A DNA stretch of 64,000 bases from Escherichia phage UB. The first letter of the stretch is position 1. Every line of letters starts with the position of its first letter. Made by a program: the position numbers and the translations under genes. The notes under the pieces were generated by a model, which was not told the origin of the DNA, ran no database searches, and saw only the letters and a program-made list of their open reading frames with translations. The stretch lies in sequence record MH383160. One strand, written 5' to 3'. This document shows, in pieces, positions 1,872 to 20,299 of the stretch.

Positions 1872-1939
1872 ATGTATGTACTCCTGATATAGTTAAGGCC
1901 GCTAGAGAGCGGCCTATGATGTTTGGTGATGTGTATTGC

Positions 1940-2341
1940 TTACAGCCCTAAGATAGTACGTGCTTCGTTACGTTCCGTACACAGCTGCATGATGTGAGCA
2001 AGTAAGTCCTTGCTAATGTATCCGGTGTTCATAGCTTCACGAATAGATACATCATAAGCACCGAACCCCGTGCGAACGATACGCACATCATTCAGGTTAG
2101 TATTATAGATACCGCCGAGATCAACGGCTTCGAATACTACATCAACAGAATATTCATTGTTGCCATCGTGGAAGTTTTCCAGTGCAATAGTATTGGATAC
2201 CGCCCAACGTTTGCAGTTTCCAATGATGCGGCACTGTTCCGGTTGGATAGTGCCATTACTTACAGCGTACTCCAGTGCATCTTTACCAAAAGTCCGAGCC
2301 AGTACTAAAACGTCAGCGAAGGAAGTGATTGAGAAGGTCAT
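1940..2341 (-). CDS. hypothetical protein (133 aa)
   Basis: Start moved to the ATG at 2341, which has an AAGGAG SD; the track start at 2404 lies inside the promoter/5'-UTR hairpin. Confidence 0.55.
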   Translation of the reverse strand: MTFSITSFADVLVLARTFGKDALEYAVSNGTIQPEQCRIIGNCKRWAVSNTIALENFHDGNNEYSVDVVFEAVDLGGIYNTNLNDVRIVRTGFGAYDVSIREAMNTGYISKDLLAHIMQLCTERNEARTILGL

Positions 2342-2430
2342 GATAAAACTCCTTAATTTAGGAGGGAGAACCATTTCCCCCTCTCTATGTAAAACATTAT
2401 ACATGAATCTAAGTACTATGCAAGTACTTT

Positions 2431-2763
2431 TTACATTTTGATACCTGGATTCAGGTAGCGGTGAGATCCATATTCTGGATCGGTTTCGGTCCAGTACTGT
2501 AAATCAATAGTGCCTTTAGCGTTAATCTTGTCTACCAGCTTATTCATCTTAGCGTATACTACATCGGCATCGATGCGTTTAAAGCCAGTAGCTTTAGTGA
2601 AGTAGTAGTGATTTGCTTCACTATCATTGAGGATATACCGAGCACCGTTTGCAGTCTGTGCGATAATGATTGAGTATTCTACTTCACGATCCAGTCCGTC
2701 GATGAATACAGATGAAACATTGGTACGGATGAAAGCTTTAACGATAGCGATTGAAGTACTCAT
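2431..2763 (-). CDS. hypothetical protein (110 aa)
   Basis: ORF; TTGACA-N16-TATAAT promoter upstream when read on the minus strand. Confidence 0.55.
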   Translation of the reverse strand: MSTSIAIVKAFIRTNVSSVFIDGLDREVEYSIIIAQTANGARYILNDSEANHYYFTKATGFKRIDADVVYAKMNKLVDKINAKGTIDLQYWTETDPEYGSHRYLNPGIKM

Positions 2764-2914
2764 TTTGAATCTCCTAACTTTGTGGGCCGTCGCACCATTG
2801 CCGCCCTACGAGATACATTATCGCAGTACTGATATACTTTGTCAATACTTTTTTATTAATAGTTTTAGTTCCACCAGCAGATAGTTACTCACCGTTATTA
2901 ACTATATATTTTGG

Positions 2915-2997
2915 ATACACCTATGCACCCTGTGGGCTAGTTTTTGTCTATGCGTATATAATAGCAAAGGGACTGACCGGAGTCAATCCTTTTTTTA
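2915..2997 (-). repeat. About 85-bp intergenic repeat, copy 1
   Basis: ATACAC..GCACCCTGTGGGC..TATATAATAGCAAAGGGACTGACCGGAGTCAATCCC plus T run; near-identical copies at 5168..5255, 8439..8521, 12461..12546. Confidence 0.6.
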
Positions 2998-3007
2998 TTC
3001 TTTTTTG

Positions 3008-3208
3008 TTAGATGATTCTCCAATCATCAACGATCATGGTAAGATACCGAACCAGTGATTCGAGTGATTCGTGTTCTCGATAGTCTGCCGCTCCACCAGC
3101 GGTACAAGTACAGCCGATTACGCCGTTTTGTAGTTCCTGGATCTTTACGTCGATCTGGTTGGCTTTAGCTTCTTTCAGTACTTCAACCAGGGCGATAGCG
3201 ATAGACAT
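3008..3208 (-). CDS. hypothetical protein (66 aa)
   Basis: ORF with SD, promoter plus hairpin upstream, hairpin terminator downstream. Confidence 0.55.
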   Translation of the reverse strand: MSIAIALVEVLKEAKANQIDVKIQELQNGVIGCTCTAGGAADYREHESLESLVRYLTMIVDDWRII

Positions 3209-3229
3209 AATGTTTTACTCCAAACTATT

Positions 3230-3292
3230 GGCGGGAGAACTATTCCCCCGCTCTATGTAAAACATTATACATTACTGGTTAGTACTGTCAAA
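3230..3292 (-). promoter_or_regulatory. Early promoter plus 5'-UTR stem-loop cassette (PeSL-like)
   Basis: On the minus strand: -35 TTGACA, 16-17 nt spacer, -10 TATAAT, then hairpin GCGGGGGAAtagTTCTCCCGC and SD of 3008..3208. Confidence 0.6.
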
Positions 3293-3298
3293 TAGTTT

Positions 3299-3556
3299 TT
3301 ATGAAATATCTTCGATGTAGTCGGCCCATTTCATTTTTTCAGTACTGTCAATGGCTACCGGATTATTTGGATCAAACCATTCACCATCCCCGCAATACAT
3401 ACCCACGGCAACGGTTTTATAGCCATCCTGGGCAGTACTCCACGACATAGCACGATAGATATGGCCTTTAACTGGTTGCAGTACTGGTAACGTTTTATGG
3501 TCTTCTACGTAGGCCATAGCTTGAGGATTTACCCGATATTGTGTGAATTGTTCCAT
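3299..3556 (-). CDS. hypothetical protein (85 aa)
   Basis: ORF; TTGACA/TAATGT-like promoter and GGGGAAA SD upstream. Confidence 0.5.
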   Translation of the reverse strand: MEQFTQYRVNPQAMAYVEDHKTLPVLQPVKGHIYRAMSWSTAQDGYKTVAVGMYCGDGEWFDPNNPVAIDSTEKMKWADYIEDIS

Positions 3557-3632
3557 TATGTTTCCCCTTGTTGTTAGTAAAGTTATTACATCAGTACTAT
3601 CAAGCTATGTCAATAGTACTGAAATAAAACTT

Positions 3633-3857
3633 TTAGATTAGATTATTGATGCCGTTGATGGTAGACTCGCTTTCTTCTTTCTCCCATTGGCGGTAGTACT
3701 TCCATGCTTCATGATATGTGGCGATTAGTTCATCTTTTTGATCCTGAGTACATGCCAGTACTGAATCACTGTAAGCGGTGTTATAGATAGAATCAAATGA
3801 TTTCTTATCTGCCGCCAGGTTTACTACTGCCCGGATCAGGTCATCGTGATTAGCCAT
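3633..3857 (-). CDS. hypothetical protein (74 aa)
   Basis: Start moved to MANHDDL (AGGAG SD); the track start lies in the 5'-UTR hairpin. Confidence 0.5.
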   Translation of the reverse strand: MANHDDLIRAVVNLAADKKSFDSIYNTAYSDSVLACTQDQKDELIATYHEAWKYYRQWEKEESESTINGINNLI

Positions 3858-3925
3858 CGTATTACTCCTTATTAGTGGGGGAGGATATCTCCCCCTATGC
3901 AAAACATTATACTTTGTTTTAGTTA

Positions 3926-4189
3926 TTATGCAAGTACTTTTTTCATATAAACATTAAATTCTACACCGCCGTAACCTTCTACGATGATATGTTTTGCGTT
4001 ATCACGTTTGCACATAGTGAAACCGTTGTTGATATGTTCTGCATTTTCCAGGGATACATCACCGATTGCAGCACATACGGCACTAATAACAGTATTCCGC
4101 AAAGTACTGGTATCATTAGCGGTCATAGTAGTTTGCAGTACTACGTTGTCGTATACGTGTGCATTGATAGTGATTTCGATAGTGTTCAT
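3926..4189 (-). CDS. hypothetical protein (87 aa)
   Basis: ORF; promoter plus hairpin cassette and SD upstream. Confidence 0.55.
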   Translation of the reverse strand: MNTIEITINAHVYDNVVLQTTMTANDTSTLRNTVISAVCAAIGDVSLENAEHINNGFTMCKRDNAKHIIVEGYGGVEFNVYMKKVLA

Positions 4190-4275
4190 GGTGTATCTCC
4201 TGGACTAGCGGGAGAACTATTCCCCCGCTCTATGTAAAACATTATACGTTAATCTAACTACAATGCAAGTACTTT

Positions 4276-4467
4276 TTAAATTTTATTTCCGATATAGTCC
4301 GGCCTGTTCTTTTCGGTCATACGCTTAAGCATTTTTTGCATATGGCTTATTGCTTGTAGTGTATCCTCTTCCAGGGATGAATCGAGATAATCAGGATCAT
4401 TCTTTACCTTGCAATGATTATGATAGCGTAGTACTGCCAGTACTTTTTTAACTTCTTCAACTGTCAT
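4276..4467 (-). CDS. hypothetical protein (63 aa)
   Basis: ORF; start overlaps the stop of 4464..4736, so translationally coupled. Confidence 0.5.
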   Translation of the reverse strand: MTVEEVKKVLAVLRYHNHCKVKNDPDYLDSSLEEDTLQAISHMQKMLKRMTEKNRPDYIGNKI

Positions 4468-4736
4468 AATAAGTACTCCACTTCGTTAGCTTTCAGGTTA
4501 GTATCAATCATCAGTGGTTTTTTGTAGTCCACAAAACGATTAGTTTTCTCGATGGCGAATCCCATATAATCCAGCTTACTTACCGTGCATTCATTCTTAA
4601 AAACTTCTTTCGCTGCATTGATGGCTGATTCAATTGATAACCGACCATCTAAGTTAATGTTTCCAAATGATCCACCAGCAGAAGTAGGATTACCGTTCAT
4701 ATCTTTAATGATCATAGTAGCGGAGTAGCTAGACAT
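4464..4736 (-). CDS. hypothetical protein (90 aa)
   Basis: ORF; promoter plus hairpin cassette upstream. Confidence 0.55.
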   Translation of the reverse strand: MSSYSATMIIKDMNGNPTSAGGSFGNINLDGRLSIESAINAAKEVFKNECTVSKLDYMGFAIEKTNRFVDYKKPLMIDTNLKANEVEYLL

Positions 4737-4758
4737 AATTTTGTTTCCTTTTATTGGT

Positions 4759-4817
4759 GGGGAGAACTATTCTCCCCTTGATGTAAACTATTATACAGTA
4801 CTGATATACTTTGTCAA
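4759..4817 (-). promoter_or_regulatory. Early promoter plus 5'-UTR stem-loop cassette (PeSL-like)
   Basis: Minus strand: GTATTGACAAAG, spacer, TATAAT, AGTTTACATCAA, hairpin GGGGAGAAtagTTCTCCCC; same architecture repeats upstream of about 30 genes between 2.3 and 19.6 kb. Confidence 0.6.
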
Positions 4818-4820
4818 TAC

Positions 4821-5042
4821 TTAATTACGTTTAAAATGATATGTGCCTTTATCATCCTGTACGCCCCATACTGATTTACCATCAACACCAGTGAAACCGG
4901 ATTGTAATTCAATATGGAAACCATTATTATCAACTACAAAAACTTTTTTATTTTCATCCCGATAACATTGATATTCTGAATCAACATTAAAGGCCGCATC
5001 ATTCAGAAGATTGGAAGCGTAAATGCAAGTCATTGTAGTCAT
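4821..5042 (-). CDS. hypothetical protein (about 73 aa)
   Basis: Start moved downstream of the 5'-UTR hairpin (MTTMTCIY). Confidence 0.45.
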   Translation of the reverse strand: MTTMTCIYASNLLNDAAFNVDSEYQCYRDENKKVFVVDNNGFHIELQSGFTGVDGKSVWGVQDDKGTYHFKRN

Positions 5043-5167
5043 GATTTTATTCCTTATTGCCAGGGAGAACCATTTCCCCCTCTCGATATAAAACATTATA
5101 CTTGATTCTAAGTACAATGCAAGTACTTTTTAAAAATAGTTTTCAGTACTGAATACTTATATAATAG

Positions 5168-5255
5168 ATACACTTATGCACCCTATGGGTCAGTGAGTTA
5201 TCTCTCAATGGATATATAATATCAAAGGGACTGACCGGAGTCAATCCCTTTTTTA
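5168..5255 (-). repeat. About 85-bp intergenic repeat, copy 2
   Basis: Direct comparison with 2915..2997. Confidence 0.6.
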
Positions 5256-5262
5256 ATCTTTT

Positions 5263-5847
5263 TTATCGTGTTATAGTTACGGCTTTTACATCACGCTTTT
5301 TATAGTACTGATTCCAGATATTGCGGGTTAAACCGTAATCAAGTACTTTAATAAGTCCATTACGATCCTGGCCGATATTCTGTTTTCTGATATCTCTTAT
5401 CGTTAGTGTTGATAATGTATCATCAACGTGTTGTAGTGCATCAGCAAAGCGGTGCTGGCGTTCGATTGCATTACGTTTAATATTGTACTTTAATTCATTG
5501 CACGCGTTTACGTGCTTCACACTGCCTTTGCTTGCAGTACTCAACCGATCCATAACGATAAACATATTATCAGGATCGCATAAATGCATATGCACTTTAG
5601 CAAAATACTGTTTCAACTGAGGGCGGTCATAGTCTAAAAAATTCCATACCTTACATTCAGTTTCATTTTGTTCTACACCCGCATCACAATTAGCGACCTT
5701 AATCACTAACCGATCATTTAAAGCGAATACAATACGGGAAGAACCCGCACCGATGATCTCCAGACCAGCTAACCGACAAGCTGAAAGGATCTCTTTGTTG
5801 GTTTCCATTTCTGACAGGGTACGGATGAATTTAGTATAATTACGCAT
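5263..5847 (-). CDS. putative protein-kinase-like protein (194 aa)
   Basis: IGAGSSRIVF...VIKV resembles a glycine-rich loop plus catalytic Lys; DIRKQNIGQDRNG and VLDYG resemble catalytic and DFG-like motifs; AGGAGAA SD at corrected start. Confidence 0.5.
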   Translation of the reverse strand: MRNYTKFIRTLSEMETNKEILSACRLAGLEIIGAGSSRIVFALNDRLVIKVANCDAGVEQNETECKVWNFLDYDRPQLKQYFAKVHMHLCDPDNMFIVMDRLSTASKGSVKHVNACNELKYNIKRNAIERQHRFADALQHVDDTLSTLTIRDIRKQNIGQDRNGLIKVLDYGLTRNIWNQYYKKRDVKAVTITR

Positions 5848-5878
5848 TGCATGTTCTCCTTGAGTTAATGAAACTATC

Positions 5879-7257: not shown

Positions 7258-7581
7258 TTACATGTCTTTCTTACGTTTTACATCGTGGTAGCGAACTGTT
7301 ATTTCTTTGTTGATCTCTTCCTCGATGCGGTGAATAACTTTTTCTTTCGGGTTGAAACCTATAACGGTTTCTTTAATGATCTCCAAGCCCGTGTATTCGC
7401 CTTGTGTACCGTAACCGTATGTAAAGGTTTCGTGTCCCAGGTCTTCCCAGCGGTCGCCAATTAACGCAGACACGTAGCAAGAGTGGTAAGTATTGCCGTG
7501 TGAATCAGTCCACCGATTAACATTAATGTCAAAGGAGGTTACAATTTTCAGTTCCACTTTCTGGGCAAGGATCATAGCCAT
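7258..7581 (-). CDS. hypothetical protein (107 aa)
   Basis: Start moved to MAMILAQ; the track start lies in the 5'-UTR hairpin. Confidence 0.5.
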   Translation of the reverse strand: MAMILAQKVELKIVTSFDINVNRWTDSHGNTYHSCYVSALIGDRWEDLGHETFTYGYGTQGEYTGLEIIKETVIGFNPKEKVIHRIEEEINKEITVRYHDVKRKKDM

Positions 7582-7669
7582 TTTTATTTCTCTCTCTTTG
7601 TTAGGAGGGGAACCGTTTCCCCTCACTTGATGTAAACTATTATACAGTACTAAGATACTTTGTCAATAC

Positions 7670-7852
7670 TTATTTTTTGGAAAGTTTACGCATTAATTCT
7701 ACGCTTTCTTGTGAACGTTTTGCTACCTGGCAAGCTGTATGGGTAGTAAACATTTTTGTATAGTCTGACGCTTTGCCACCGAACCGAGCGGCACGTTCAC
7801 GGGCACTTGGAACTAATACTATTTCTTTCTTGCAGATAGTGCACTTAGCCAT
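7670..7852 (-). CDS. hypothetical small basic protein (60 aa)
   Basis: ORF; promoter plus hairpin cassette upstream, near-identical to that of the neighbouring gene. Confidence 0.5.
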   Translation of the reverse strand: MAKCTICKKEIVLVPSARERAARFGGKASDYTKMFTTHTACQVAKRSQESVELMRKLSKK

Positions 7853-7939
7853 TTTTATTTCTCTCTTTTAGTTAGGAGGGGAACCATTCCCCTCGCTTGA
7901 TGTAAACTATTATACAGTACTAAGATACTTTGTCAATAC

Positions 7940-8955: not shown

Positions 8956-9168
8956 TTAATCTTTCAGCCAATGATCTTGAATGAATTTTTCACAGAATCC
9001 CTGTTTCATGGATTCTAACAGGCGTTCGCGGTGAGCGGCGGCATATTGCTCAGTACTATGCGTTACGCCAGGCTGATAACGTGATACCCCATCCGGTCCG
9101 ATGTATTGTACATCCCACGGTTTTTCGTTAGTATCAGACCATTTACGAACGATTAGTTGACCTTGCAT
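8956..9168 (-). CDS. hypothetical protein (70 aa)
   Basis: ORF; promoter plus hairpin cassette and AGAGGAAAG SD upstream. Confidence 0.55.
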   Translation of the reverse strand: MQGQLIVRKWSDTNEKPWDVQYIGPDGVSRYQPGVTHSTEQYAAAHRERLLESMKQGFCEKFIQDHWLKD

Positions 9169-9251
9169 TTTTCTTTCCTCTCAGTGGGGAGAATCATTTC
9201 TCCCCTTCATGTAAACTATTATACAGTACTGGGTTGCATTGTCAATAGTTT

Positions 9252-9602: not shown

Positions 9603-9791
9603 TTACAGTTTATGAATCAATTCTTTATCTAAGCGATAGCGTACATTATTAATAGTAACGGCATTGTTTTTAATGCTACGCTGTACAGGTCCACCAGCAA
9701 TAACAAATGTTGCTTTATTGCCCCGAACAATGATAGCACTTCCAGGATTACCGAAATCATCTTGTACTAAAATACTTGATAAGTTTTCCAT
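9603..9791 (-). CDS. hypothetical protein (62 aa)
   Basis: ORF; promoter plus hairpin cassette upstream. Confidence 0.5.
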   Translation of the reverse strand: MENLSSILVQDDFGNPGSAIIVRGNKATFVIAGGPVQRSIKNNAVTINNVRYRLDKELIHKL

Positions 9792-9870
9792 TTTTTATTT
9801 CCTCTTAGTAGGGGAAGATGTTTCCCCTTGATGCAAGTACTATAACAGTACTGAAAACTAAATGCAAGTA

Positions 9871-10227
9871 CTATGATAAAATCATGATAGGATATTCACT
9901 ATCGATCAGTACCTCGAATCCGAAACCTTCGTACCATTCTTTAAGATTAAAGGCGTTATCTTCTCCCGTATCGCATTCTAAAATGATACAATCTGAATCA
10001 TCGGCGGCATCAATAAAGGCATTCATTAATTCGTTACCTTCACCATTGCCCCGACTATCAGGATCAACATAAAGAGAATCAATAAACGCTACACGGTCAT
10101 AATCAAGATCCGGTGCAATGATTCCACGTTTAACAAACCAGTACTGCAATTGTGCTACTTTGCCCTGTACTTGATAGCCAGTGATCTCGCCATTGTCAGT
10201 AGTACGCGTGATATGTTGTATTCCCAT
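9871..10227 (-). CDS. putative GNAT-family N-acetyltransferase (118 aa)
   Basis: VDPDSRGNGEGNELMNA resembles the acetyl-CoA-binding motif A (Q/R-x-x-G-x-G/A) of GNAT enzymes; size fits a minimal GNAT fold. Confidence 0.45.
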   Translation of the reverse strand: MGIQHITRTTDNGEITGYQVQGKVAQLQYWFVKRGIIAPDLDYDRVAFIDSLYVDPDSRGNGEGNELMNAFIDAADDSDCIILECDTGEDNAFNLKEWYEGFGFEVLIDSEYPIMILS

Positions 10228-10290
10228 GATTTCAATCCTCAGTTAAGATATAAAATATTATAAACTATCTTTCAGTACTGTCAATACTTT

Positions 10291-11688: not shown

Positions 11689-11901
11689 TTAGTTAATAAT
11701 AGTCAGTGTAAAATTGTAATCCCCTGCCTGGTATAGTACTTTATCGCCGAACGTGCCGACACGTTTCATATTGCAATAGATACCCATAACACTTTTTACA
11801 TCTTTGATATTCCGAACGCCTGTAATATCTTTATTAAAATAATCGTGGTCAGAAAATAAAACTTGTTTTGCATTTTTCAGTACAGTGCGGATATTAGCCA
11901 T
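11689..11901 (-). CDS. hypothetical protein (70 aa)
   Basis: ORF; promoter plus hairpin cassette upstream. Confidence 0.5.
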   Translation of the reverse strand: MANIRTVLKNAKQVLFSDHDYFNKDITGVRNIKDVKSVMGIYCNMKRVGTFGDKVLYQAGDYNFTLTIIN

Positions 11902-11994
11902 TTTGTTTTCTCTCTGTTAGTGGGGAGAACTATTCTCCCCTTGATGTAAACTATTATACAGTACTATAATCTATTGTCAAACTATTTTTTTATA

Positions 11995-12336
11995 TTATTC
12001 GAAATCTTCTGGACCGGACTGATAATCATCTTCACCGTATGCACTTTCTAACCGCTCACCAGTGTAATCATCAGTTAAGCTATCATCCTCATAGTTCACG
12101 TCTACGCCTGTGATGTAAAACTGGCTATCGTCTGGATCATTGAAATTAATTTTTTGGATGTTTACAATAACTGTATTGATGCCCAGGACACCGCCATCAG
12201 CCGTTACAAAGTACTGATAGTTTTCACAACCGCCTGAATTGAAACCGTAATTAATTTCGGCCCGACCATCATTTAAACGCAGTGCCTGGGCAATGATTTC
12301 ATTTTCAAAGTTAGATTGAGCAATTGAGATAGTCAT
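11995..12336 (-). CDS. hypothetical acidic protein (113 aa)
   Basis: ORF; promoter plus hairpin cassette and AAGGAAAC SD upstream. Confidence 0.55.
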   Translation of the reverse strand: MTISIAQSNFENEIIAQALRLNDGRAEINYGFNSGGCENYQYFVTADGGVLGINTVIVNIQKINFNDPDDSQFYITGVDVNYEDDSLTDDYTGERLESAYGEDDYQSGPEDFE

Positions 12337-12460
12337 GATTCGTTTCCTTATTACCAGGGGAAACCGTTTCCCCTTGCGATGTAAAACATTATACGCTTAT
12401 TGAGATAGTTTGCAAGTACTTTTTAAAAATAGTTTTCAGTACTCAAACATTATACAATAG

Positions 12461-12769: not shown

Positions 12770-12922
12770 TCATTTTTTAGCCTGAAAATAATGTTTAATT
12801 TGAGCGGCGGTCAGTGCACAATTACGCAGGAAGTTTTCTGTATAACTGCGTCGAGTACTGAAAGAAAATTGACCTTTACCGTTCCCGATAGTAACATCAA
12901 ACCGAGCATTATATTGTTTCAT
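12770..12922 (-). CDS. hypothetical small protein (50 aa)
   Basis: Start moved to MKQYNARF (GGAGA SD); the track's first Met is encoded by the hairpin loop. Confidence 0.45.
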   Translation of the reverse strand: MKQYNARFDVTIGNGKGQFSFSTRRSYTENFLRNCALTAAQIKHYFQAKK

Positions 12923-13219
12923 TTTGTTTCTCCTGTTCTTGGGGAGAATCATTTCTCCCCTTCATGTAAACTATTATACAGTACTAAAAACTAATTGCAA
13001 GTATTATTTTTTAGATTTACGTAAACTTTCTACCATCTCAGGAGTAAGCCCCAGCGGGTAGGAAACCACTTCATCCACAAAACGCAAAGGGAATACCCCA
13101 TCTAAAGTTGAACGTGCTTTCTTATTAGTACTCTTTTTTGATGCTTTCATTTCATATTCCTTAATTAGTGGGGAGAACTATTTCTCCACTTCATGTAAAC
13201 TATTATACAGTACTAAAAA

Positions 13220-13429
13220 CTAATTGCAAGTATTATTTTCTAAAAAATGTTTGTATGCTGAATCAACCACTCTTTCGATAACATACGCTAACGGCACGTA
13301 TCCAACTACATGACTACAATAAAAAGGACTACGATTAGAATCATCGTATGCAAATACTTTTTCAGGATCTGCATCAATCACATACATATTAACCTTTAAG
13401 ATGTCGATCTTATCCTGTACAGTAAGCAT
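13220..13429 (-). CDS. hypothetical protein (69 aa)
   Basis: ORF; co-transcribed with 13435..13707. Confidence 0.5.
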   Translation of the reverse strand: MLTVQDKIDILKVNMYVIDADPEKVFAYDDSNRSPFYCSHVVGYVPLAYVIERVVDSAYKHFLENNTCN

Positions 13430-14028: not shown

Positions 14029-14336
14029 TTTAGTTTCCTTAGTTGTCTTGATAAAATCTATTATGCCAGTACTATCAAACTATGTCAATAGTACTGTGAT
14101 AATATTTTTACTTACTTTTTGCTTTCTTAATTGCTTCCACCTGGTCGGCCCATTCTTTACCCCATACTTGTAAATTATAATGGTACTGGCAAAGAGCAAC
14201 GCCCCGCTTTAAACCAGTAATAGATTTTTTACCACATTGACAAGTTTTCATATTAGTTTCCTTGTAGTGGGGAGAATCATTTCTCCCCTTGATGTAATGT
14301 ATTATACTTTATTCGATTTACTTTGCAAGTACTTTT

Positions 14337-14564
14337 TTAATTTAATTCATCCAGGCAAAGGATACGCTCAACGCCCAAATCAGTTAAACTAATGGTCGGC
14401 ACTTGATAGGTTTCAATGTATGCTACAGTTGCCCACTGACCGAACTCATTAACGGCCCAGGTATTCATTGCATTTTGCAATTCCGCACCTGCCTTGTTAG
14501 TAATGACTGCAACTACTTGTTCGTTGCCAGTAGTACCAGATACGCGAGTAATGATAATAGCCAT
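14337..14564 (-). CDS. hypothetical protein (75 aa)
   Basis: Start moved to MAIIITRVSG, downstream of the 5'-UTR hairpin. Confidence 0.5.
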   Translation of the reverse strand: MAIIITRVSGTTGNEQVVAVITNKAGAELQNAMNTWAVNEFGQWATVAYIETYQVPTISLTDLGVERILCLDELN

Positions 14565-14801
14565 TGTTTTGATTCCTTTGATTTGGAAGGAGAACCGTTT
14601 TCCCCTCTCGATGTAAAACATTATACGCTAATCTATTAATCATGCAAGTACTTTTTATTACTTTTTGCAAAATACTTTAAACGCTCTCAATCGCATTCTA
14701 ACGACCTTAACGCCACCAGCTAGGGCGATGTATCAGATAATCAGTTTAATGCGTTAGAATCGATTATAGGCGGTGCTAGTGGACTGGAATACTATAGACA
14801 C

Positions 14802-15564: not shown

Positions 15565-15581
15565 AGTGATTCAGTACTATA

Positions 15582-15881
15582 TTATAAACAGTTAATTACT
15601 CCGGTGTGCGTTACTTTCTCAGTATCCATAACCGTGACCGATCCACGCTTAGTACTTGCATCATAATAAATTGTTGTGCTACCGTTTTCGTCTTCTTCAT
15701 GGAACGGGCCGTTTTTAAATGCTTCTGGTTGGATCTCTAAATCCTTTAAAACAATCTCGCCCGTACTTTCATTGGTCATCGCAACAGTGCACTGAATGAA
15801 TTTTTCACTACTCACATCTAACGACGCATTAACAGCGAAAGAGGAAACAGATAAAGCCAGGGCGATGATTGCAATTTTCAT
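15582..15881 (-). CDS. putative secreted protein with signal peptide (99 aa)
   Basis: N-terminus MKIAIIALALSVSSFAVNA is a typical Sec signal peptide; terminator downstream. Confidence 0.55.
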   Translation of the reverse strand: MKIAIIALALSVSSFAVNASLDVSSEKFIQCTVAMTNESTGEIVLKDLEIQPEAFKNGPFHEEDENGSTTIYYDASTKRGSVTVMDTEKVTHTGVINCL

Positions 15882-15965
15882 TTGATTATCCTTAGTTACT
15901 AGGGGGAACCTCTCCCCCGTGCTATGTAAAATATTATACAGTACTAAAAACTAATTGCAAGTACT

Positions 15966-16202
15966 TTATGATTTTTTATAAAACATTTCGGCAGTGATAT
16001 TTTTACCCGTTGGTTGTACTTTATCCAGAATTTTTTGATGCCCAGGCCGTCCAAATGAATATGATCCGTAAACCGTAAACCAGTAGTTACCCTCAGTGTT
16101 TACATGTACAGCACAATAGGGAACGCCCCGCGATTCATCACTAGTAAAGTGTGCTACCGTTCCCGTTACATTCGAAGTCGTTGATTTGATTTGTTCAAGC
16201 AT
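15966..16202 (-). CDS. hypothetical protein (78 aa)
   Basis: ORF; promoter plus hairpin cassette upstream. Confidence 0.5.
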   Translation of the reverse strand: MLEQIKSTTSNVTGTVAHFTSDESRGVPYCAVHVNTEGNYWFTVYGSYSFGRPGHQKILDKVQPTGKNITAEMFYKKS

Positions 16203-16445
16203 TTTCTTATTCCTTAGTTACCAGGGGAACCGCTCCCCCTATGCAAAACATTATACGCGTTTAAAAACTAATAGCAAGTATTTTAATAAAAAGTATTTGA
16301 AAAATAATTGTTGACAACTGCATCCAGTACTGGCATAATACTTATATAAAGACGATACAGTCACTAACCCACAGGGTGCCGAGATCCGTCTATTAAATGA
16401 TTCAGTACTGAAAAAGTAACGGGGAGTTATTATCTCCCCGCGTTG

Positions 16446-16667
16446 TTATTTGGTAAGGTATAAACAGAAGTCACCTTTATTTGCTACGCCGCCAGTGTAA
16501 CGCGATGAATAGTTAGAAATATCTTGTACTTCTGCTATTACCAGTGTATCATCATTCATTTCGTCGCAGAAGCAAACGGCTGGATCTTTAACGCCGATAT
16601 TGTCGGCATGTTCCCGCATAGATTTAACCAGTGCTTCCAGTTGAGAAAGAGTAGTGATATTAGCCAT
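16446..16667 (-). CDS. hypothetical protein (73 aa)
   Basis: Start moved to MANITTL, downstream of the hairpin. Confidence 0.5.
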   Translation of the reverse strand: MANITTLSQLEALVKSMREHADNIGVKDPAVCFCDEMNDDTLVIAEVQDISNYSSRYTGGVANKGDFCLYLTK

Positions 16668-16752
16668 TGTATTTTCCTCATTACCAGGGAGAACCATTTC
16701 TCCCCTCTATGTAAAACATTATACAGTACTAAAAACTAATTGCAAGTACTTT

Positions 16753-16941
16753 TTAATTAAATTCCATAAAATCATTCTCAACGTGCACAACAATCTGATT
16801 ATTTTTAAAGTCCGCAGAAAACTCAATACAATCATATACTGCTTTTTCTGTTACCATACTATGAGTACCAATCGGATTAATAGGGGATTGAATTGTTTCA
16901 ATCTCGTTACCTTGTTCATTAACAATTAAAATATTAAACAT
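16753..16941 (-). CDS. hypothetical protein (62 aa)
   Basis: ORF; GGAGTAAAAG SD and TATAAT-containing promoter upstream. Confidence 0.5.
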   Translation of the reverse strand: MFNILIVNEQGNEIETIQSPINPIGTHSMVTEKAVYDCIEFSADFKNNQIVVHVENDFMEFN

Positions 16942-16996
16942 AACTTTTACTCCTGATAGTGTTTACCTGATATAAAGTATTATACGCCTTTATTGC

Positions 16997-17203
16997 TTAG
17001 TGTCCAGTACTTTTTAAAACATAATCAAAGACACTTCTCACATCATTGATCATCGCCTGGCGGTTAGCAGGTAAAGCATCAGGATCACCACTATCCCAAG
17101 CCTGTATGAAGCCTCCAAGCTCTGAATAAACTTTATTACGCAATCCGATTAACTGTAATTCTTTTTCTTCAAGCTCTTTGATACGTTCAATTAAATCACT
17201 CAT
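16997..17203 (-). CDS. hypothetical protein (68 aa)
   Basis: Start moved to MSDLIERIKEL with AAGGA SD. Confidence 0.45.
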   Translation of the reverse strand: MSDLIERIKELEEKELQLIGLRNKVYSELGGFIQAWDSGDPDALPANRQAMINDVRSVFDYVLKSTGH

Positions 17204-17220
17204 TAGATAATCCTTAGTAC

Positions 17221-17508
17221 TTAACTGTAAGATCCGCAACGGTCGCAGTAGTGCCCGTCTTCCTCGTCATCGTCAACGAATTGCCCGACGAAATGATCTA
17301 CTTTCGCTTTCAGGTTATTATAATCGTTTTCTACTTCCTTTAATCGTTCCTGGTAGTATTCCAGTGCCTCAAGATACGCCGCCTCAGCAGTTTTTGCACG
17401 CATAGCTAAATTCATGCCACGCGATTCATCATAAAGCCAATAACCATCAGTGCACTGGCTAATAGATAATGACTTGCTTAATACTGTATAGCTAATTACT
17501 TTGCTCAT
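17221..17508 (-). CDS. hypothetical protein with C-terminal CxxC (95 aa)
   Basis: Start moved to MSKVISY with GAGGAA SD; C-terminal HYCDRCGSYS. Confidence 0.5.
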   Translation of the reverse strand: MSKVISYTVLSKSLSISQCTDGYWLYDESRGMNLAMRAKTAEAAYLEALEYYQERLKEVENDYNNLKAKVDHFVGQFVDDDEEDGHYCDRCGSYS

Positions 17509-17563
17509 TAGATATTCCTCAGTAAAGGCGGGAACCATTCCCCGCCATTATCTCAGTACTAAA

Positions 17564-18175
17564 TTAATATGCGATTGATTCTACTACGCCATCAATAACA
17601 TTGAATTGATACTCGTTACCCTCGATCAGTGCCGTGATGTTCTCAGTAGTGAATTGATCCTCATATGCATTCTCTAAATCACGGTACAACTTGCGGGATA
17701 ATTCACGAATAGTTTCAGTGAGTAGTTCCTCAAGCTCATTAACTAACGTTTCTTGTTTTGCGGTTAAATCAGTGTAAGCCGATTCAATGTACCCGCTTAC
17801 AGTATTCTCATGCGAGTAGTGGGAGTGAGAACGCTTTACACTCATCGGCAAATCATCTTCATTCAGCAGGTGACGGATTGAGCGATACTTAGTTAATGCT
17901 CTTACCTTGCGTAAAAACTTCACTGCGTCAACGTGGTCAGTACTGATTGATGCACCGTCACCTTGCGACCAAAAACCACTGAATCGTAAATCTGCGTCAT
18001 TAATGCCATATTCCGGTAGTACTGTTTCTTTATAGTATTCAATTTCACTTTCAGAAAAATAATCATCGTTTAAGTTTTTTTCACGTTCCCGAACCAGTTC
18101 GATAGCTGACGTTTGTTGTTCTGCGTTCAATTCAGAAAAAGCCATAACATAAGTAGTAGTAGTGATAGTTTTCAT
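17564..18175 (-). CDS. hypothetical acidic protein (203 aa)
   Basis: ORF; promoter upstream; strongly acidic. Confidence 0.55.
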   Translation of the reverse strand: MKTITTTTYVMAFSELNAEQQTSAIELVREREKNLNDDYFSESEIEYYKETVLPEYGINDADLRFSGFWSQGDGASISTDHVDAVKFLRKVRALTKYRSIRHLLNEDDLPMSVKRSHSHYSHENTVSGYIESAYTDLTAKQETLVNELEELLTETIRELSRKLYRDLENAYEDQFTTENITALIEGNEYQFNVIDGVVESIAY

Positions 18176-18476
18176 TTTGTAACCCTCATTCAGTAGTTGA
18201 TGTAAGTATTATACGCTTTTAAAAACAATTGTCAAACTATTTTATCAGGGGAGTTTTTCGTGTGCCTTACTCCTGGGCTACTTAACGGGGAGTTACTTAT
18301 TTCGTCCCCCGTCCTGATGTAAAACATTATACGCCTTTAAACATAGTTTGCAAGTACTTTTTGAAAAATAGTTTTTAATCACTTTTATATAGATACACTC
18401 CCGCACCCTATGGGCTATCGCCTTGTGTCCGGCTTGTAAGTATTATCTCACTAAGCCGGATAATGGTCAAGTACTT

Positions 18477-18743
18477 TTATTCAAGTACTGCTATCTTTTT
18501 AGTACTGTACACAGTAACACGGTTGCCCTTGCGGTCGTGCTTTATTTCTACCACTCGACGCGATACACTATCAGGACTTTTTAACGCCGATAACCAGTAC
18601 TGTAAGGATCTGGCTGTACTTTGCTTTACTACCGCCCAACGTTTACCACGTTCCGATTGCACGCCCATATCTTTAAACGTTGCCCCGTCCTGGCGAGCGG
18701 CGATCCGAGCTTGTTCACGCGTTGCAAAGTATATAATATTCAT
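18477..18743 (-). CDS. hypothetical protein, paralog of 6767..7171 (88 aa)
   Basis: Start moved to MNIIYFATREQ; shares FATRE..AR and HDRKGNRVTVYS with 6767..7171. Confidence 0.5.
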   Translation of the reverse strand: MNIIYFATREQARIAARQDGATFKDMGVQSERGKRWAVVKQSTARSLQYWLSALKSPDSVSRRVVEIKHDRKGNRVTVYSTKKIAVLE

Positions 18744-18825
18744 GCTGTTATCCCATCGTTGATGTATGAATAAAATCCTATTATAAAGTACTATCACCGT
18801 GCAATAGTACTTTAAATAAATTCTA

Positions 18826-19065
18826 TTACATTCCAACCATTGCAGCACGGATCGCCGTAGTGCTATATTTGAATCCGTCCGGCGTTTTATCTTGTCCAGT
18901 CTGTTCTAAAAATAGCATCATATGACGGGCCGCATCATTGCGATTAGTGTTAGCGGCAATAAAGTCCTGGGCCAACCGGTATAATGATTCATCGTTATTA
19001 ATCCAAAGGCTTACATTCCATTGAGTTTTGTTAGCGTGACCTAAGAACATTTTTGATTTAGCCAT
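18826..19065 (-). CDS. hypothetical protein (79 aa)
   Basis: ORF; promoter plus hairpin cassette upstream. Confidence 0.5.
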   Translation of the reverse strand: MAKSKMFLGHANKTQWNVSLWINNDESLYRLAQDFIAANTNRNDAARHMMLFLEQTGQDKTPDGFKYSTTAIRAAMVGM

Positions 19066-19163
19066 TTTTAAATCCTCGTTTGATTTGAGGCGGGAATAGT
19101 TCCCGCTCTCGATGTAAAGTATTATACGCTATTTGTTAGTACTGTCAAACTACTTTTTAAAAC

Positions 19164-19526
19164 TTATTCGTAAATCTTGCCACTGTCAGCCCATACCAGG
19201 AAACGAGGCATATTATCCCATGCATCTTGTTTTAAATTTAAACCGTGTAATACTTCTGTACTTTCCATTCCTGGTACTGGTTTACTATACACCGCGAACA
19301 ATTCACCCATATACTGATAAGCCATCGTTAAATCACTTGCGATCATCTTATGGATCATCGCATCAAGCATCACGGTAGCGGCGTATTGTTCACGCTTAAG
19401 CGGTAACATTGCAATAAGTTCCCGATAAGCTGAAATGTGAATTTTTACCGTTTCTGCCGGAAGATCTTTCATCTCGTCGCGGAAGTTAACCAGGTTAGCA
19501 ATAATTTTATTGATTTGAGTAGCCAT
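19164..19526 (-). CDS. hypothetical protein (120 aa)
   Basis: Start moved to MATQINKII, downstream of the hairpin. Confidence 0.5.
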   Translation of the reverse strand: MATQINKIIANLVNFRDEMKDLPAETVKIHISAYRELIAMLPLKREQYAATVMLDAMIHKMIASDLTMAYQYMGELFAVYSKPVPGMESTEVLHGLNLKQDAWDNMPRFLVWADSGKIYE

Positions 19527-20299
19527 CGTTTTAATCTCTCTTAAAGTGTAGCGGGAAGTGTTCCCGCTCTCGATGTAAAACATTCTACACCTTTCCCAAT
19601 ACTTTGCAAGTACTTTCTACAAATACTTTTAAAATAGTTTTCTTTCTATATAGGAGTACTATCATTCAGTACTGCTACACTAGAATCAATCAACCAAATC
19701 ACTACTATACCCCATAAAACGGCCTCAGACGCATTCTAACGCATTAATACACCTAAGCTATACATTTGCACCGCCACCAGCTAACCAGGGCTTTACGATG
19801 CGTTTAAACGCGTTAAATTATTTTCAATTATTTTGTTTTTTGCTATTGACTCAGTACTAAAAAAGCGTATAATTACTACATAGACGCGAGAAAGCGGATA
19901 TCCCAAGGGGTGCGGAATTGTGCCCAAAATTCAAGATATAAAAAAAAGGATACACTCCCGCACCCTAGCAGGTCAAAGCACTTTCTCAGTACTGAATCAT
20001 AGTACCATAGTACGCCCCAGGATGGCAAGCAAATTAATTAAAACTTTTTTCATCCAGGGTATTGCTTTATTTTTCCAGTACTGTATAATAGTTTCATCAA
20101 GTCGAGAAAGACTATAGCCCACCGGGTGCATAGTTACGCCCAAAATTTCAGTACTAGATTATTTTTTAAAAATATTCATCCAGGCGGTTGACATTGCCCC
20201 CAGTTTATTAGATAATGATTCCAGATTCAGAAAAATCTAACTCCAGATACTGCGGGGAAACTATCCCCACGCGGTAGGGGAACTATTGGAAAAAAACAA

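What the first reader, a model, noticed from the sequence alone, without database searches (positions are those of the whole stretch)
1872..19600. About 30 early-promoter plus 5'-UTR stem-loop cassettes (PeSL-like)
Most small genes in this block are preceded on the minus strand by TTGACA, a 16-17 nt spacer containing CAGTACTG, TATAAT, GTTTTACAT, then a GGGGAGAA-loop-TTCTCCCC hairpin, an SD and the ATG. Where the arms differ, the mismatch is a G-U wobble on the minus-strand RNA but an A-C clash on the plus strand, so the hairpin is selected as an RNA element of the minus transcript, not a terminator. This matches my recollection of mobile promoter-early stem-loop cassettes reported for T4-type phages.
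Basis: partly seen in the sequence, partly recalled or inferred. Interest (0 to 1): 0.55.

Follow-up and report, generated by a model that had tools for sequence, protein, structure and literature searches.

The report
Jumbo-phage early promoter plus leader-hairpin cassettes
The terminal-repeat early region of this Asteriusvirus-type jumbo coliphage holds 21 repeated ~85-bp cassettes, each a strong host-type promoter followed by a conserved RNA hairpin at the start of the mRNA, a ribosome site and a small gene; they resemble the PeSL cassettes of T4-type phages but are built differently.

Summary
The window is an Asteriusvirus (Rak2-like jumbo coliphage, about 95% identical to vB_EcoM_CRJP21). 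The block lies in what relatives annotate as a ~21-kb direct terminal repeat.

There are 21 full cassettes on the minus strand between 2339 and 19609, and one more at 49846-49923. Each has an A-tract, a -35 (TTGACA or TTGCAA/T), a 16-nt spacer, TATAAT, a conserved discriminator ending ACAT, a 6-10-bp G-rich hairpin, a Shine-Dalgarno site and ATG. About 20 further promoters in the block lack this hairpin.

Evidence that the hairpin is a selected structure:
- It follows 19 of 26 perfect promoters, against 2-3% expected by chance.
- It starts 12.3±1.5 nt after the -10 hexamer.
- Stems differ but stay paired across genera (Klebsiella phage Muenster, Salmonella phage Munch).
- Internal G·U outnumber A·C 11:1, and 5' arms are 93% purine.
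- No copy has a U-tract, whereas true terminators in the same block do.

So it is a transcribed 5'-leader hairpin, not an intrinsic terminator. I infer that it stabilises or insulates the mRNA. Homology breakpoints between relatives cluster in cassettes, as with PeSLs, but the hairpin position and phage lineage fail PeSL membership. I rate it a new variant of a known kind, of moderate interest.

Side findings: AGTACT is 13-fold over-represented genome-wide, the terminal repeat carries an array of Chi sites, and there are two candidate non-coding leader elements.

The parts
2339..2423 (-). Cassette: -35 TTGCAT, 16 nt, TATAAT, hairpin 2362-2383 (GAGGGGGAA-augg-UUCUCCCUC, one G.U), SD, ATG 2341
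3206..3291 (-). Cassette: TTGACA/TATAAT, hairpin 3231-3251 (GCGGGGGAA-uag-UUCUCCCGC), ATG 3208
3855..3933 (-). Cassette: TTGCAT/TATAAT, hairpin 3877-3895 (GGGGGAG-auauc-CUCCCCC), ATG 3857
4187..4268 (-). Cassette: TTGCAT/TATAAT, hairpin 4207-4229 (AGCGGGGGAA-uag-UUCUCCCGCU), ATG 4189
4734..4817 (-). Cassette: TTGACA/TATAAT, hairpin 4759-4777 (GGGGAGAA-uag-UUCUCCCC), ATG 4736
5040..5122 (-). Cassette: TTGCAT/TATAAT, hairpin 5062-5081 (AGGGGGAA-augg-UUCUCCCU), ATG 5042
7579..7666 (-). Cassette: TTGACA/TATAAT, hairpin 7605-7624 (GAGGGGAA-acgg-UUCCCCUC), ATG 7581
7850..7936 (-). Cassette: TTGACA/TATAAT, hairpin 7876-7894 (GAGGGGAA-ugg-UUCCCCUC), ATG 7852
9166..9245 (-). Cassette: TTGACA/TATAAT, hairpin 9186-9205 (GGGGAGAA-auga-UUCUCCCC), ATG 9168
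9789..9867 (-). Cassette: TTGCAT, 17 nt, TATAGT, hairpin 9810-9828 (AGGGGAA-acauc-UUCCCCU), ATG 9791
11899..11980 (-). Cassette: TTGACA/TATAAT, hairpin 11922-11940 (GGGGAGAA-uag-UUCUCCCC), ATG 11901
12334..12415 (-). Cassette: TTGCAA/TATAAT, hairpin 12356-12374 (AGGGGAAA-cgg-UUUCCCCU), ATG 12336
12920..13000 (-). Cassette: TTGCAA/TATAAT, hairpin 12941-12960 (GGGGAGAA-auga-UUCUCCCC), ATG 12922
13148..13229 (-). Cassette with a degraded hairpin 13172-13187 (GGAGAA-auag-UUCUCC; outer pairs interrupted), gene ATG 13150
14249..14328 (-). Cassette: TTGCAA/TATAAT, hairpin 14269-14288 (GGGGAGAA-auga-UUCUCCCC), ATG 14251
14562..14647 (-). Cassette: TTGCAT/TATAAT, hairpin 14587-14607 (GAGGGGAA-aacgg-UUCUCCUU, two G.U), ATG 14564
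15879..15960 (-). Cassette: TTGCAA/TATAAT, hairpin 15902-15918 (GGGGGAG-agg-UUCCCCC), ATG 15881
16200..16277 (-). Cassette: TTGCTA/TATAAT, hairpin 16222-16241 (UAGGGGGA-gcgg-UUCCCCUG), ATG 16202
16665..16745 (-). Cassette: TTGCAA/TATAAT, hairpin 16686-16705 (GGGGAGAA-augg-UUCUCCCU), ATG 16667
19063..19148 (-). Cassette: TTGACA/TATAAT, hairpin 19090-19106 (GCGGGAA-cua-UUCCCGC), ATG 19065
19524..19609 (-). Cassette: TTGCAA/TAGAAT, hairpin 19550-19568 (AGCGGGAA-cac-UUCCCGCU), ATG 19526
49846..49923 (-). Isolated cassette of the same design outside the flagged block: TTGACA/TATAAT, hairpin 49866-49886 (GGGGAUGA-acuuc-UCAUCCCU), ATG 49848
10225..10284 (-). Same promoter family without hairpin (TTGACA-16-TATAAT, short leader, ATG 10227). 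Similar hairpin-less promoters have -10 hexamers starting at 6431, 7212, 8254, 11376, 16984 and 18213

Best explanation
These are expression cassettes for early (host-takeover) genes in the ~21-kb direct terminal repeat of a Rak2-like jumbo coliphage (genus Asteriusvirus).

Anatomy of each ~85-bp cassette, which fills the gap between two small genes:
- The upstream stop codon sits in an A-rich UP-like tract.
- A near-consensus sigma-70 promoter follows (-35 TTGACA or TTGCAA/T, 16-nt spacer, TATAAT).
- The conserved discriminator (G/A)NTTTACAT places the predicted start at the A of ACAT.
- The transcript therefore begins with 3-6 unpaired nucleotides, then a 6-10-bp G/C-rich hairpin (purine-rich 5' arm, 3-5-nt loop). 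An A-rich linker, a Shine-Dalgarno site and the AUG follow about 20 nt later.

Shown here: the hairpin is selected as a structure on the sense strand and is not an intrinsic terminator.

Inferred: host RNA polymerase fires these promoters immediately after DNA entry. The 5'-proximal hairpin then acts on the mRNA itself. It most likely slows 5'-end-dependent decay (RppH/RNase E access), both for primary transcripts and for read-through transcripts cut in the AU-rich promoter RNA upstream. It may also keep the leader from pairing with the ribosome-binding site whichever gene the cassette is joined to. The closest analogues are the 5' stem-loops of T7 phi10 and ompA mRNAs.

Secondarily, the repeated cassettes act as patches of homology at which gene-sized modules are exchanged between related phages.
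For: Identity and setting:
- The block is 95% identical to Asteriusvirus CRJP21 at genome positions 1225-19862.
- Direct terminal repeats of about 20-21 kb are reported for relatives (Muenster 1-20030; fEgEco12 20,993 bp).

Promoters:
- Thirteen promoters match the consensus 12 of 12, and all are on the minus strand.
- RpoD-like early promoters with UP elements were predicted for the related phage CBB (PMC5259590).

Hairpin enrichment and position:
- The hairpin follows 19 of 26 perfect promoters, against 1.7-3% in controls.
- Mean fold z-score is -2.9 against dinucleotide shuffles.
- The hairpin starts 12.3±1.5 nt after the -10 and ends about 20 nt before the AUG, while its distance to the upstream stop varies from 30 to 428 nt.

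Structure conserved while sequence changes:
- Muenster, Munch and a metagenomic relative carry hairpins at the same place with other stems (GGAGAUUCCA/UGGAAUCUCC, GGGAAUGAA/UUCAUUCCC, GGGGCAA/UUGCCCC).
- Seven of 8 pairs show changes on both sides, and 96.9% of cells are paired against 78% in shuffles and 50-66% with slid partners.
- In orthologues, most one-sided changes are Watson-Crick to G·U or the reverse, and several changes are doubly compensatory.
- Stem identity across orthologues is 94.5%, against 85.3% for loops.

Strand specificity:
- Internal G·U:A·C is 11:1.
- The 5' arms are 93% purine.

Not a terminator:
- No hairpin has a T-run.
- About eight canonical terminator-like hairpins with T-runs divide the same block.

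Recombination:
- 35 of 61 homology breakpoints fall in cassette intervals that cover 21% of the region (p≈8e-10).
- Cassettes plus genes are shared with a Vequintavirinae phage.
Against: - The transcription start is inferred only from promoter geometry.
- With 3-6 unpaired 5' nucleotides, the hairpin is at or beyond the limit reported for protection by 5'-terminal stem-loops (about 2-4 nt; my recollection of Emory/Bouvet/Belasco work, not checked here).
- RNase E is reported to bypass simple stem-loops orthogonal to its scanning path (PMC9943677). An internal hairpin in read-through RNA may therefore protect little.
- Roughly half of the promoters in the block work without a hairpin.
- Sense and antisense folding energies do not differ significantly in the window.
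- The sequences used for pair counts were chosen because they form hairpins, so the percentage paired is partly circular. The enrichment test carries the weight.
- G·T wobble would also be tolerated in single-stranded non-template DNA.
- Breakpoints in intergenic cassettes would be expected for any gene-wise mosaicism.
Confidence: 0.55

Rival explanations
1. PeSL-type function. The stem-loop attenuates or terminates transcription coming from the upstream cassette, so that promoter traffic does not pile up along the array. The cassette's main evolutionary role would be as a recombination site (mini-circle formation).
For: - PeSL stem-loops of RB49/phi1 are G(n)-loop-C(n), like these. One of them reduced downstream lacZ as strongly as rrnB T1 (PMC2839356).
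- Breakpoints cluster in cassettes.
- The array has a strong promoter about every 300-400 bp.
Against: - No hairpin is followed by a U-tract; the tails are A-rich.
- The block has its own canonical terminators with T-runs.
- The hairpin position is tied to the -10 and the AUG, not to the upstream stop.
- The hairpin lies after the cassette's own predicted start, so it would also attenuate its own transcript.
Confidence: 0.12
2. Translation-level element. The hairpin sits at the 5' edge of the 30S footprint and acts as an insulator or standby platform. This would keep the SD single-stranded and make initiation independent of the shuffled upstream context, with little effect on mRNA stability.
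For: - The spacing from hairpin end to AUG is narrow, 16-25 nt in 97 of 98 cassettes from 7 loci.
- The linker is A-rich and unstructured.
- The 5' arms are SD-like (GGAG/GGGG) and the 3' arms are anti-SD-like.
Against: - Hairpin-less cassettes with the same SD types exist in the same array.
- Alternative pairing of the 3' arm with the SD is plausible in only a few cassettes (by eye).
- The distance to the -10 is even tighter than the distance to the AUG.
Confidence: 0.15
3. Recognition tag. The invariant start (ACAU…) plus the G-rich hairpin would be bound by a phage or host protein that marks early phage mRNAs. Possible purposes are sparing them from a phage-induced shut-off nuclease, timing their shut-off, or 5'-end modification.
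For: - The element is conserved across three or more genera of Rak2-like phages at one position, always with G-rich 5' arms that begin GGG/GGAG/GAG.
- The hairpin is optional, which defines two classes of early mRNA.
Against: - Stems and loops vary widely within one genome: about 12 stem variants, and loops UAG, AUGG, AUGA, ACGG, CAC, CUA and AUAUC. That argues against sequence-specific recognition.
- No candidate protein was identified.
Confidence: 0.1
4. DNA-level palindrome. The inverted repeat would be an operator for a dimeric repressor of early promoters, or a cruciform.
For: It is an inverted repeat placed at about +5 to +25 of strong promoters.
Against: - The arms co-vary rather than keeping one sequence, and many variants coexist in one genome.
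- The G·U:A·C bias of 11:1 and the purine/pyrimidine arm asymmetry are strand-specific.
Confidence: 0.03

Closest known systems
PeSLs (promoter-early stem-loops) of T4-type phages RB49/phi1, PST/T4 and nt-1/KVP40 (Arbiol et al. 2010, PMC2839356; Comeau et al. 2014, PMC4122927)
   Same: - Repeated intergenic modules: AT-rich tract holding the upstream stop, near-consensus sigma-70 early promoter, G-rich/C-rich stem-loop, SD and start codon.
- They are concentrated among small ORFans in a hyperplastic region.
- Junctions of insertions and replacements between close relatives fall in them.
   Different: - PeSL stem-loops lie upstream of, within, or just before the start site, and are described as terminators or attenuators. 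Here the hairpin is inside the 5' UTR at a fixed distance and has no U-tract.
- The host phage is a Rak2-like jumbo phage, not a T4-type phage.
- Mini-circles were not tested.
5'-terminal mRNA stabiliser stem-loops (T7 phi10 leader GGGAGACC-ACAAC-GGUUUCCC, ompA 5' UTR hp1, T4 gene 32 leader). From my own knowledge; the T4 gene 32 case is also cited in PMC8948821
   Same: - A G-rich 5' arm hairpin at the start of a phage mRNA, followed by an unstructured A/U-rich linker and a strong SD.
- Some Munch-like copies even have the ACAAC loop.
   Different: - The T7 hairpin starts at +1 of a T7-RNAP transcript. Here 3-6 unpaired nucleotides are predicted before the stem, and the promoters are sigma-70 type.
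- A stabilising effect is not shown here.
RpoD-like early promoters with UP elements predicted in Rak2-like phages (CBB, GAP32; PMC5259590) and the TTGAC/TATAATA promoters of PA5oct (PMC7318152)
   Same: Same promoter type, same clustering in front of short hypothetical early genes including the terminal repeat.
   Different: Those papers report 18-32 promoters per genome and no leader hairpin. Here the density is about 40 promoters in 18 kb, and half carry the hairpin module.
T5 pre-early and early promoters in the terminal repeat (first-step-transfer DNA). From my own knowledge
   Same: Very strong sigma-70 promoters with an A-rich -43 region, a conserved region around +1 (TATAAT-AGATTCAT) and a purine-rich initial transcribed sequence, driving small host-takeover genes located in a long direct terminal repeat.
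   Different: No conserved leader hairpin is known to me for T5, and the phage family is unrelated.

Membership tests
PeSL (T4-type promoter-early stem-loop cassettes) | Near-consensus sigma-70 early promoter with an AT-rich upstream tract | tested here: met
   Thirteen 12/12 matches and many 10-11/12 matches on the minus strand, with an AAAAAGTAC upstream tract
PeSL (T4-type promoter-early stem-loop cassettes) | Stem-loop placed upstream of -35, overlapping -35 or -10, between them, or just before the transcription start | tested here: not met
   The hairpin starts 8-14 nt after the -10 (mean 12.3), which is downstream of the predicted +1. The start is predicted, not mapped. A different cassette type in the window (hairpin containing the -35) does meet this feature
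PeSL (T4-type promoter-early stem-loop cassettes) | Stem-loop acts as a transcription terminator or attenuator | tested here: inconclusive
   There is no U-tract after any of the 21 hairpins, while true terminators in the block have one. Function cannot be assayed here
PeSL (T4-type promoter-early stem-loop cassettes) | Located in hyperplastic regions next to ORFans and at indel or replacement junctions between close relatives | tested here: met
   35 of 61 breakpoints against three Asteriusvirus genomes fall in cassette intervals (21% expected). Coverage among 173 related records is patchy
PeSL (T4-type promoter-early stem-loop cassettes) | Recombination between cassettes yields encapsidated mini-circles | not testable with these tools
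   Needs inverse PCR on phage stocks
PeSL (T4-type promoter-early stem-loop cassettes) | Host genome is a T4-type myovirus | tested here: not met
   The closest records are all Asteriusvirus, jumbo phages of about 350-380 kb
5'-terminal stabiliser stem-loop (ompA / T7 phi10 type) | Stable hairpin within about 2-4 nt of the mRNA 5' end | tested here: inconclusive
   Stems are -7 to -16 kcal/mol. Three to 6 unpaired nucleotides are predicted if the start is the A of ACAT, and in some copies extra pairs reduce this to about 3. The start is not mapped
5'-terminal stabiliser stem-loop (ompA / T7 phi10 type) | Removal shortens mRNA half-life | not testable with these tools
   Needs rifampicin-chase experiments
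Intrinsic (Rho-independent) terminator | GC-rich hairpin immediately followed by a U-tract | tested here: not met
   None of the class-A hairpins is reported by the terminator scan on the sense strand. Their tails are ACUAA, ACCAA or CCUAA
Any Rfam family | Match to a curated covariance model | tested here: not met
   Window 1-23000, E≤1: only a chance mir-1000 hit at E=0.49

The most novel reading that the evidence does not exclude
The invariant transcript start plus the G-rich 5' hairpin is a clade-wide 'self' mark on a subset of early mRNAs of Rak2-like jumbo phages, read by a phage or host factor. The purpose could be to exempt these mRNAs from phage-induced mRNA shut-off or to time the early-to-middle switch. 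It would work together with the AGTACT palindromes that bracket the same promoters and saturate the whole genome.
Probability: 0.1. Interest if true: 0.7.

Novelty: new variant of a known kind. Interest (0 to 1): 0.4.

Why it matters
- Jumbo phages of the Rak2 group carry hundreds of unannotated small early genes, and how these are expressed has hardly been studied.
- The papers I could search on RaK2, CBB, PA5oct, fEgEco12 and Sharanji mention at most predicted promoters and no leader hairpin.
- A compact, portable module (strong sigma-70 promoter, structured leader, ribosome-binding site) conserved across genera gives a direct handle for annotating early transcription units. It also gives a way to test how early phage mRNAs are protected or timed, and could serve as an expression part for synthetic biology.
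- It extends the PeSL idea, regulatory cassettes acting as recombination joints, beyond T4-type phages.

Tried and rejected
- **Rfam and tRNA scans.** The Rfam scan of 1-23000 at E≤1 found nothing relevant. ARAGORN found no tRNA or tmRNA in the window.
- **Sense versus antisense folding energy as a strand test.** The difference is not significant. I replaced this test by counting G·U against A·C with a symmetric finder. A first symmetric finder over-extended stems into spurious A·C pairs.
- **Switch model in which the CU-rich 3' arm alternates between the 5' arm and the SD.** The complementarity is convincing in only a few cassettes (for example 12978), so I dropped it.
- **Operator or cruciform reading.** Rejected because of covariation and strand asymmetry.
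- **Exact-pattern scan of IMG/VR for promoter+hairpin.** It returned only 121Q itself and one Munch-like contig. This gave no evidence of wider spread, but the pattern was narrow.
- **Literature searches for a prior description in Asteriusvirus or Rak2-like phages.** None found.
- **Not run.** I did not build a covariance model, because position-anchored hairpin detection already recovered the copies. I did not use protein searches or structure prediction, because the finding concerns non-coding elements.

Full report
**What the window is.** Megablast of 1800-20000 finds 173 phage records, nearly all jumbo coliphages of the genus Asteriusvirus. The best is vB_EcoM_CRJP21: 93% covered, 94.9% identical, at genome positions 1225-19862 on the opposite strand. 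The window is not phage 121Q itself; the shared pieces are about 80-99% identical, mostly about 90%. In relatives this stretch lies in the direct terminal repeat. It is annotated as such in vB_Ec-M-J and in Klebsiella phage Muenster (1-20030), and is measured at 20,993 bp in fEgEco12 (PMC13070987). The genes are about 50 small 'hypothetical proteins' plus an acetyltransferase and a DksA-like zinc-finger protein; a protein kinase is annotated in some relatives. All are on the window's minus strand.

**Checking the observation.** The -10 plus discriminator motif TATAATGTTTTACAT (up to 3 mismatches) occurs 42 times against 14.5±3.8 expected. Twenty-seven copies are on the minus strand between 2387 and 20832. 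The literal GGGGAGAA-loop-TTCTCCCC pattern occurs 5 times against 0 expected. Reading every copy gives 21 complete cassettes between 2339 and 19609, plus one at 49846-49923.

The layout of a cassette is:
- A-rich tract
- -35 (TTGACA in 8; TTGCAA, TTGCAT or TTGCTA in 13)
- 16-nt spacer (17 in one)
- TATAAT (TATAGT and TAGAAT once each)
- (G/A)NTTTACAT
- hairpin of 6-10 bp with a 3-5-nt loop
- A-rich linker
- SD and ATG

About 20 further promoters in the block lack this simple hairpin:
- Seven have short unstructured leaders (-10 at 6431, 7212, 8254, 10262, 11376, 16984, 18213).
- Three are followed by a longer structured non-coding leader (8370, 15461, 18331).
- Several are CATAAT or GATAAT types.
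- Four are a different 'type-B' cassette.

So the description is right in kind, but 'about 30' and 'most small genes' overstate the full cassettes. TTGACA and GGGGAGAA are each only one of several variants.

**Is the hairpin more than chance?** I defined promoters by their hexamers alone. Of these, 19 of 26 perfect promoters and 22 of 52 relaxed ones carry a hairpin that meets the finder's threshold (at least 6 bp, stability score ≥15) and starts in a 10-nt window after the -10. The same test scores 1.7% of shuffled downstream segments and 3-4% of all other positions on either strand. The 36 nt after the start fold at a mean of -13.0 kcal/mol against -6.8 for dinucleotide shuffles, a mean z of -2.9.

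**Position.**
- Window cassettes: the hairpin starts 12.3±1.5 nt after the -10 hexamer and ends about 20 nt before the AUG. Its distance to the upstream stop codon ranges from 30 to 428 nt.
- 98 cassettes from seven loci: the start is 11-15 nt after the -10 in 92, and the gap to the AUG is 16-25 nt in 97.
- Predicted start: sigma-70 promoters usually start 7-8 nt after the -10 at a purine preceded by a pyrimidine (established knowledge). This places +1 at the A of ACAT. The transcript would then begin with about 3-6 unpaired nucleotides followed directly by the stem. This step is inferred, not measured.

**Covariation and strand.** Related phages give the strongest evidence. Klebsiella phage Muenster (Alcyoneusvirus), Salmonella phage Munch and a Munch-like metagenomic contig have the same promoter, hairpin, SD architecture in their first ~20 kb, but with different stems. 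Examples are GGAGAUUCCA/UGGAAUCUCC, GGGAAUGAA/UUCAUUCCC, GGGGAUACA/UGUAUCCCC, GGGGCAA/UUGCCCC and GGGGGAA/UUCCCCC.

- **Pair counts.** On 28 distinct hairpins with 3-nt loops, 7 of 8 pairs show changes on both sides. 96.9% of cells are paired, against 78.2% after shuffling partners and 50-66% after sliding them. The covariation score is 0.60 against 0.22. These sequences were picked because they form hairpins, so the percentage paired is partly circular. The enrichment test above is what shows the picks are not chance.
- **Orthologues.** Comparing cassettes between the window and CRJP21, UE-S1 and 121Q, most one-sided stem changes are Watson-Crick to G·U or the reverse (3269, 12393, 12978, 14625, 16723). 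Several are doubly compensatory or whole-stem replacements that keep pairing (4246, 11958, 15938, 19126). Four weaken a stem: a terminal mismatch (4246 vs CRJP21, 7644 vs 121Q), a one-base deletion at the stem base (7914 vs CRJP21) and an internal mismatch in the already degraded 13207.
- **Identity by element across orthologues.** The -10 is 99.6% identical, stems 94.5%, loops 85.3%, the discriminator 90.6% and coding sequence 92.7%.
- **Strand test.** With a finder that accepts G·U and A·C equally, internal G·U:A·C is 11:1 (p=0.006; some events share ancestry). The 5' arms are 93% purine and the 3' arms 93% pyrimidine. The cruder sense-versus-antisense energy test is not significant.

Together these results point to selection on the sense strand, most simply on the RNA.

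**Not a terminator.** None of the 21 hairpins is followed by a T-run; the tails read ACUAA, ACCAA or CCUAA. The terminator scan instead picks out other hairpins in the same block that do have T-runs:
- four type-B elements (2989, 5251, 8518, 12540)
- 6744-6726, 14828-14807, 15564-15543 and 16441-16419

Records of UE-S1, Muenster and Munch annotate terminators in this region; by position I take these to be such T-run hairpins, though I did not read their sequences. When this phage terminates transcription it uses canonical signals, and these split the array into several units.

**Mechanism.**
- *Shown:* a strong host-type promoter, a fixed structured leader, an SD and a small gene, repeated.
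- *Inferred:* the cassettes fire on entry of the terminal repeat. The 5'-proximal hairpin stabilises and/or insulates the mRNA. Read-through RNAs cut in the very AU-rich promoter-derived RNA would regain a hairpin-proximal 5' end.
- *Against:* 3-6 unpaired nucleotides is at or beyond the limit reported for protection by 5'-terminal stem-loops (my recollection of the Belasco work). RNase E can step over simple orthogonal stem-loops while scanning (PMC9943677). Many promoters in the array do without the hairpin.
- *Rivals:* a PeSL-type attenuator, a translation insulator or standby site, a recognition tag for a factor, and a DNA operator. The last is rejected by covariation and strand asymmetry.

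**Comparison with PeSLs.** I read both PeSL papers. Shared features:
- AT-rich tract holding the upstream stop
- near-consensus sigma-70 promoter
- G(n)-loop-C(n) stem
- SD and AUG
- clustering among ORFans in plastic regions
- association with indel junctions

The last feature holds here. 35 of 61 ends of homology blocks against three Asteriusvirus genomes fall in cassette intervals that cover 21% of the region (p≈8e-10), although any gene-wise mosaicism would favour intergenic junctions. Cassettes together with their genes also occur in a Vequintavirinae phage, A73.

Differences:
- PeSL stem-loops sit upstream of, within, or just before the start and are presented as terminators. Here the stem is transcribed from its own promoter at a fixed distance and lacks a U-tract.
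- The phage is not T4-type.

The design therefore works partly like a PeSL (portable promoter module, recombination joint) but fails two defining features. The hairpin itself is closer to the 5' stem-loops of T7 phi10 or ompA mRNAs. The promoter component alone is already known for the group (CBB, GAP32, PA5oct). I found no description of the leader hairpin in the searchable literature.

**Verdict.** This is a real, conserved regulatory cassette, and a new variant of a known kind. The anatomy is secure; the function is inferred. Interest is moderate (0.4).

**Things noticed in passing.**
- AGTACT is the most over-represented hexamer in the window: 275 copies against 21.5±4.7 expected. It occurs in coding and non-coding DNA and in all Rak2-like loci, but not in A73. 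Sites are better conserved than average hexamers, and the motif sits at two fixed places in the early promoters.
- Chi (GCTGGTGG) occurs 14 times against 0.5 expected. Nine copies are co-oriented in the early block, and an inverted pair lies at 20623-20642. The same pattern is seen in relatives and is confined to the first ~20 kb in Munch.
- Two conserved non-coding leader elements are described in the notebook.

Noticed in passing
whole window (e.g. 1641-1646 … 38138-38143 and beyond); also L001-L003, L005-L008: The palindrome AGTACT, extended (C)AGTACT(G), is the most over-represented hexamer: 275 copies against 21.5±4.7 expected (~13x, 4.3 per kb).
- It occurs in coding sequence (all frames) and non-coding DNA.
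- The density is the same in every Rak2-like locus (4.1-7.4 per kb) but not in Vequintavirinae A73 (0.5 per kb).
- Sites are more conserved than average hexamers (91.5% vs 80.6%; 88.3% vs 65.5%).
- In early promoters it sits at two fixed places 20 bp apart, overlapping the first T of the -35 and abutting the -10.
No paper was found. Possible roles are a binding site for a phage DNA-binding or nucleoid protein, or a DNA modification site.
   Followed up: partly
window minus strand 2871-20630 (nine sites), inverted pair 20623-20642; also 31043, 31298, 31556 (+), 50393 (-): Chi sites (GCTGGTGG) occur 14 times against 0.53 expected.
- Nine are co-oriented with early transcription inside the terminal-repeat block.
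- An inverted pair CCACCAGC-acaa-GCTGGTGG lies near the presumed genome end.
- Relatives show the same co-oriented arrays and terminal inverted pair in CRJP21, 121Q and Munch, and arrays without such a pair in the stretches fetched for UE-S1 and Muenster. In Munch all 13 sites lie in the first ~20.5 kb.
I infer that they protect the linear ends from RecBCD.
   Followed up: partly
window minus strand 2890-2989, 5148-5251, 8415-8518, 12441-12540; related copies without the leader at ~44557, 46728, 48010, 52625, 56151, 59393: A second cassette type. A terminator-like hairpin with a C(UUCG)G or C(UCCG)G loop contains the -35 (AAAGGGA-TTGACT-CCGG-TCAGTCCCTTT). A T-run and TATTAT follow.
- In the early block this is followed by a ~55-nt leader with the near-invariant motif RCCCACAGGGTGC…TGTATCTAT, conserved in Muenster and Munch. 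No covariation was seen.
- The same leader motif follows ordinary promoters at 10852 and 18447.
- This type fits published PeSL geometry better than the flagged cassettes.
   Followed up: partly
window minus strand 8285-8357, 18244-18318, 15375-15448; L004 5918-5992, L005 5309-5380, L006 3197-3270: Class-A promoters at 8370, 18331 and 15461 are followed not by a gene but by a ~75-nt structured leader.
- It has a conserved AAGUAG and a 4-bp covarying stem (GGAG/CUCC, CCAG/CUGG, CCUG/CAGG) that encloses a conserved 16-nt loop GUAAGNCNNANGAAAA.
- At 8370 and 18331 another promoter follows.
- It is conserved in Asteriusvirus, A73, Muenster and Munch.
- There is no Rfam or tRNA match.
It is a candidate phage non-coding RNA.
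   Followed up: partly
L004 (Escherichia phage A73, Vequintavirinae) 5905-6400 and 10085; Phapecoctavirus/Justusliebigvirus hits: Cassettes of the same design, with homologous downstream genes and the long-leader element, occur in rV5-like phages of ~140-150 kb. These phages are otherwise unrelated and lack the AGTACT and Chi enrichment. This points to horizontal transfer of early-gene modules between coliphage lineages.
   Followed up: partly
window plus strand 27137, 28321, 30819, 31627, 32843, 35297, 39005, 40878: In the plus-strand gene block the terminator-like hairpins are built from the same motif, (A)GCCAGTAC-loop-GTACTGGC(T) followed by T-runs. Several read as hairpins on both strands.
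   Followed up: no
window 19650-21000: A gene-poor stretch holds a perfect promoter (-10 at 20832) followed by a 14-bp AT-rich hairpin, the inverted Chi pair and several AGTACT sites. It probably lies next to the physical genome end or the terminal-repeat boundary.
   Followed up: no
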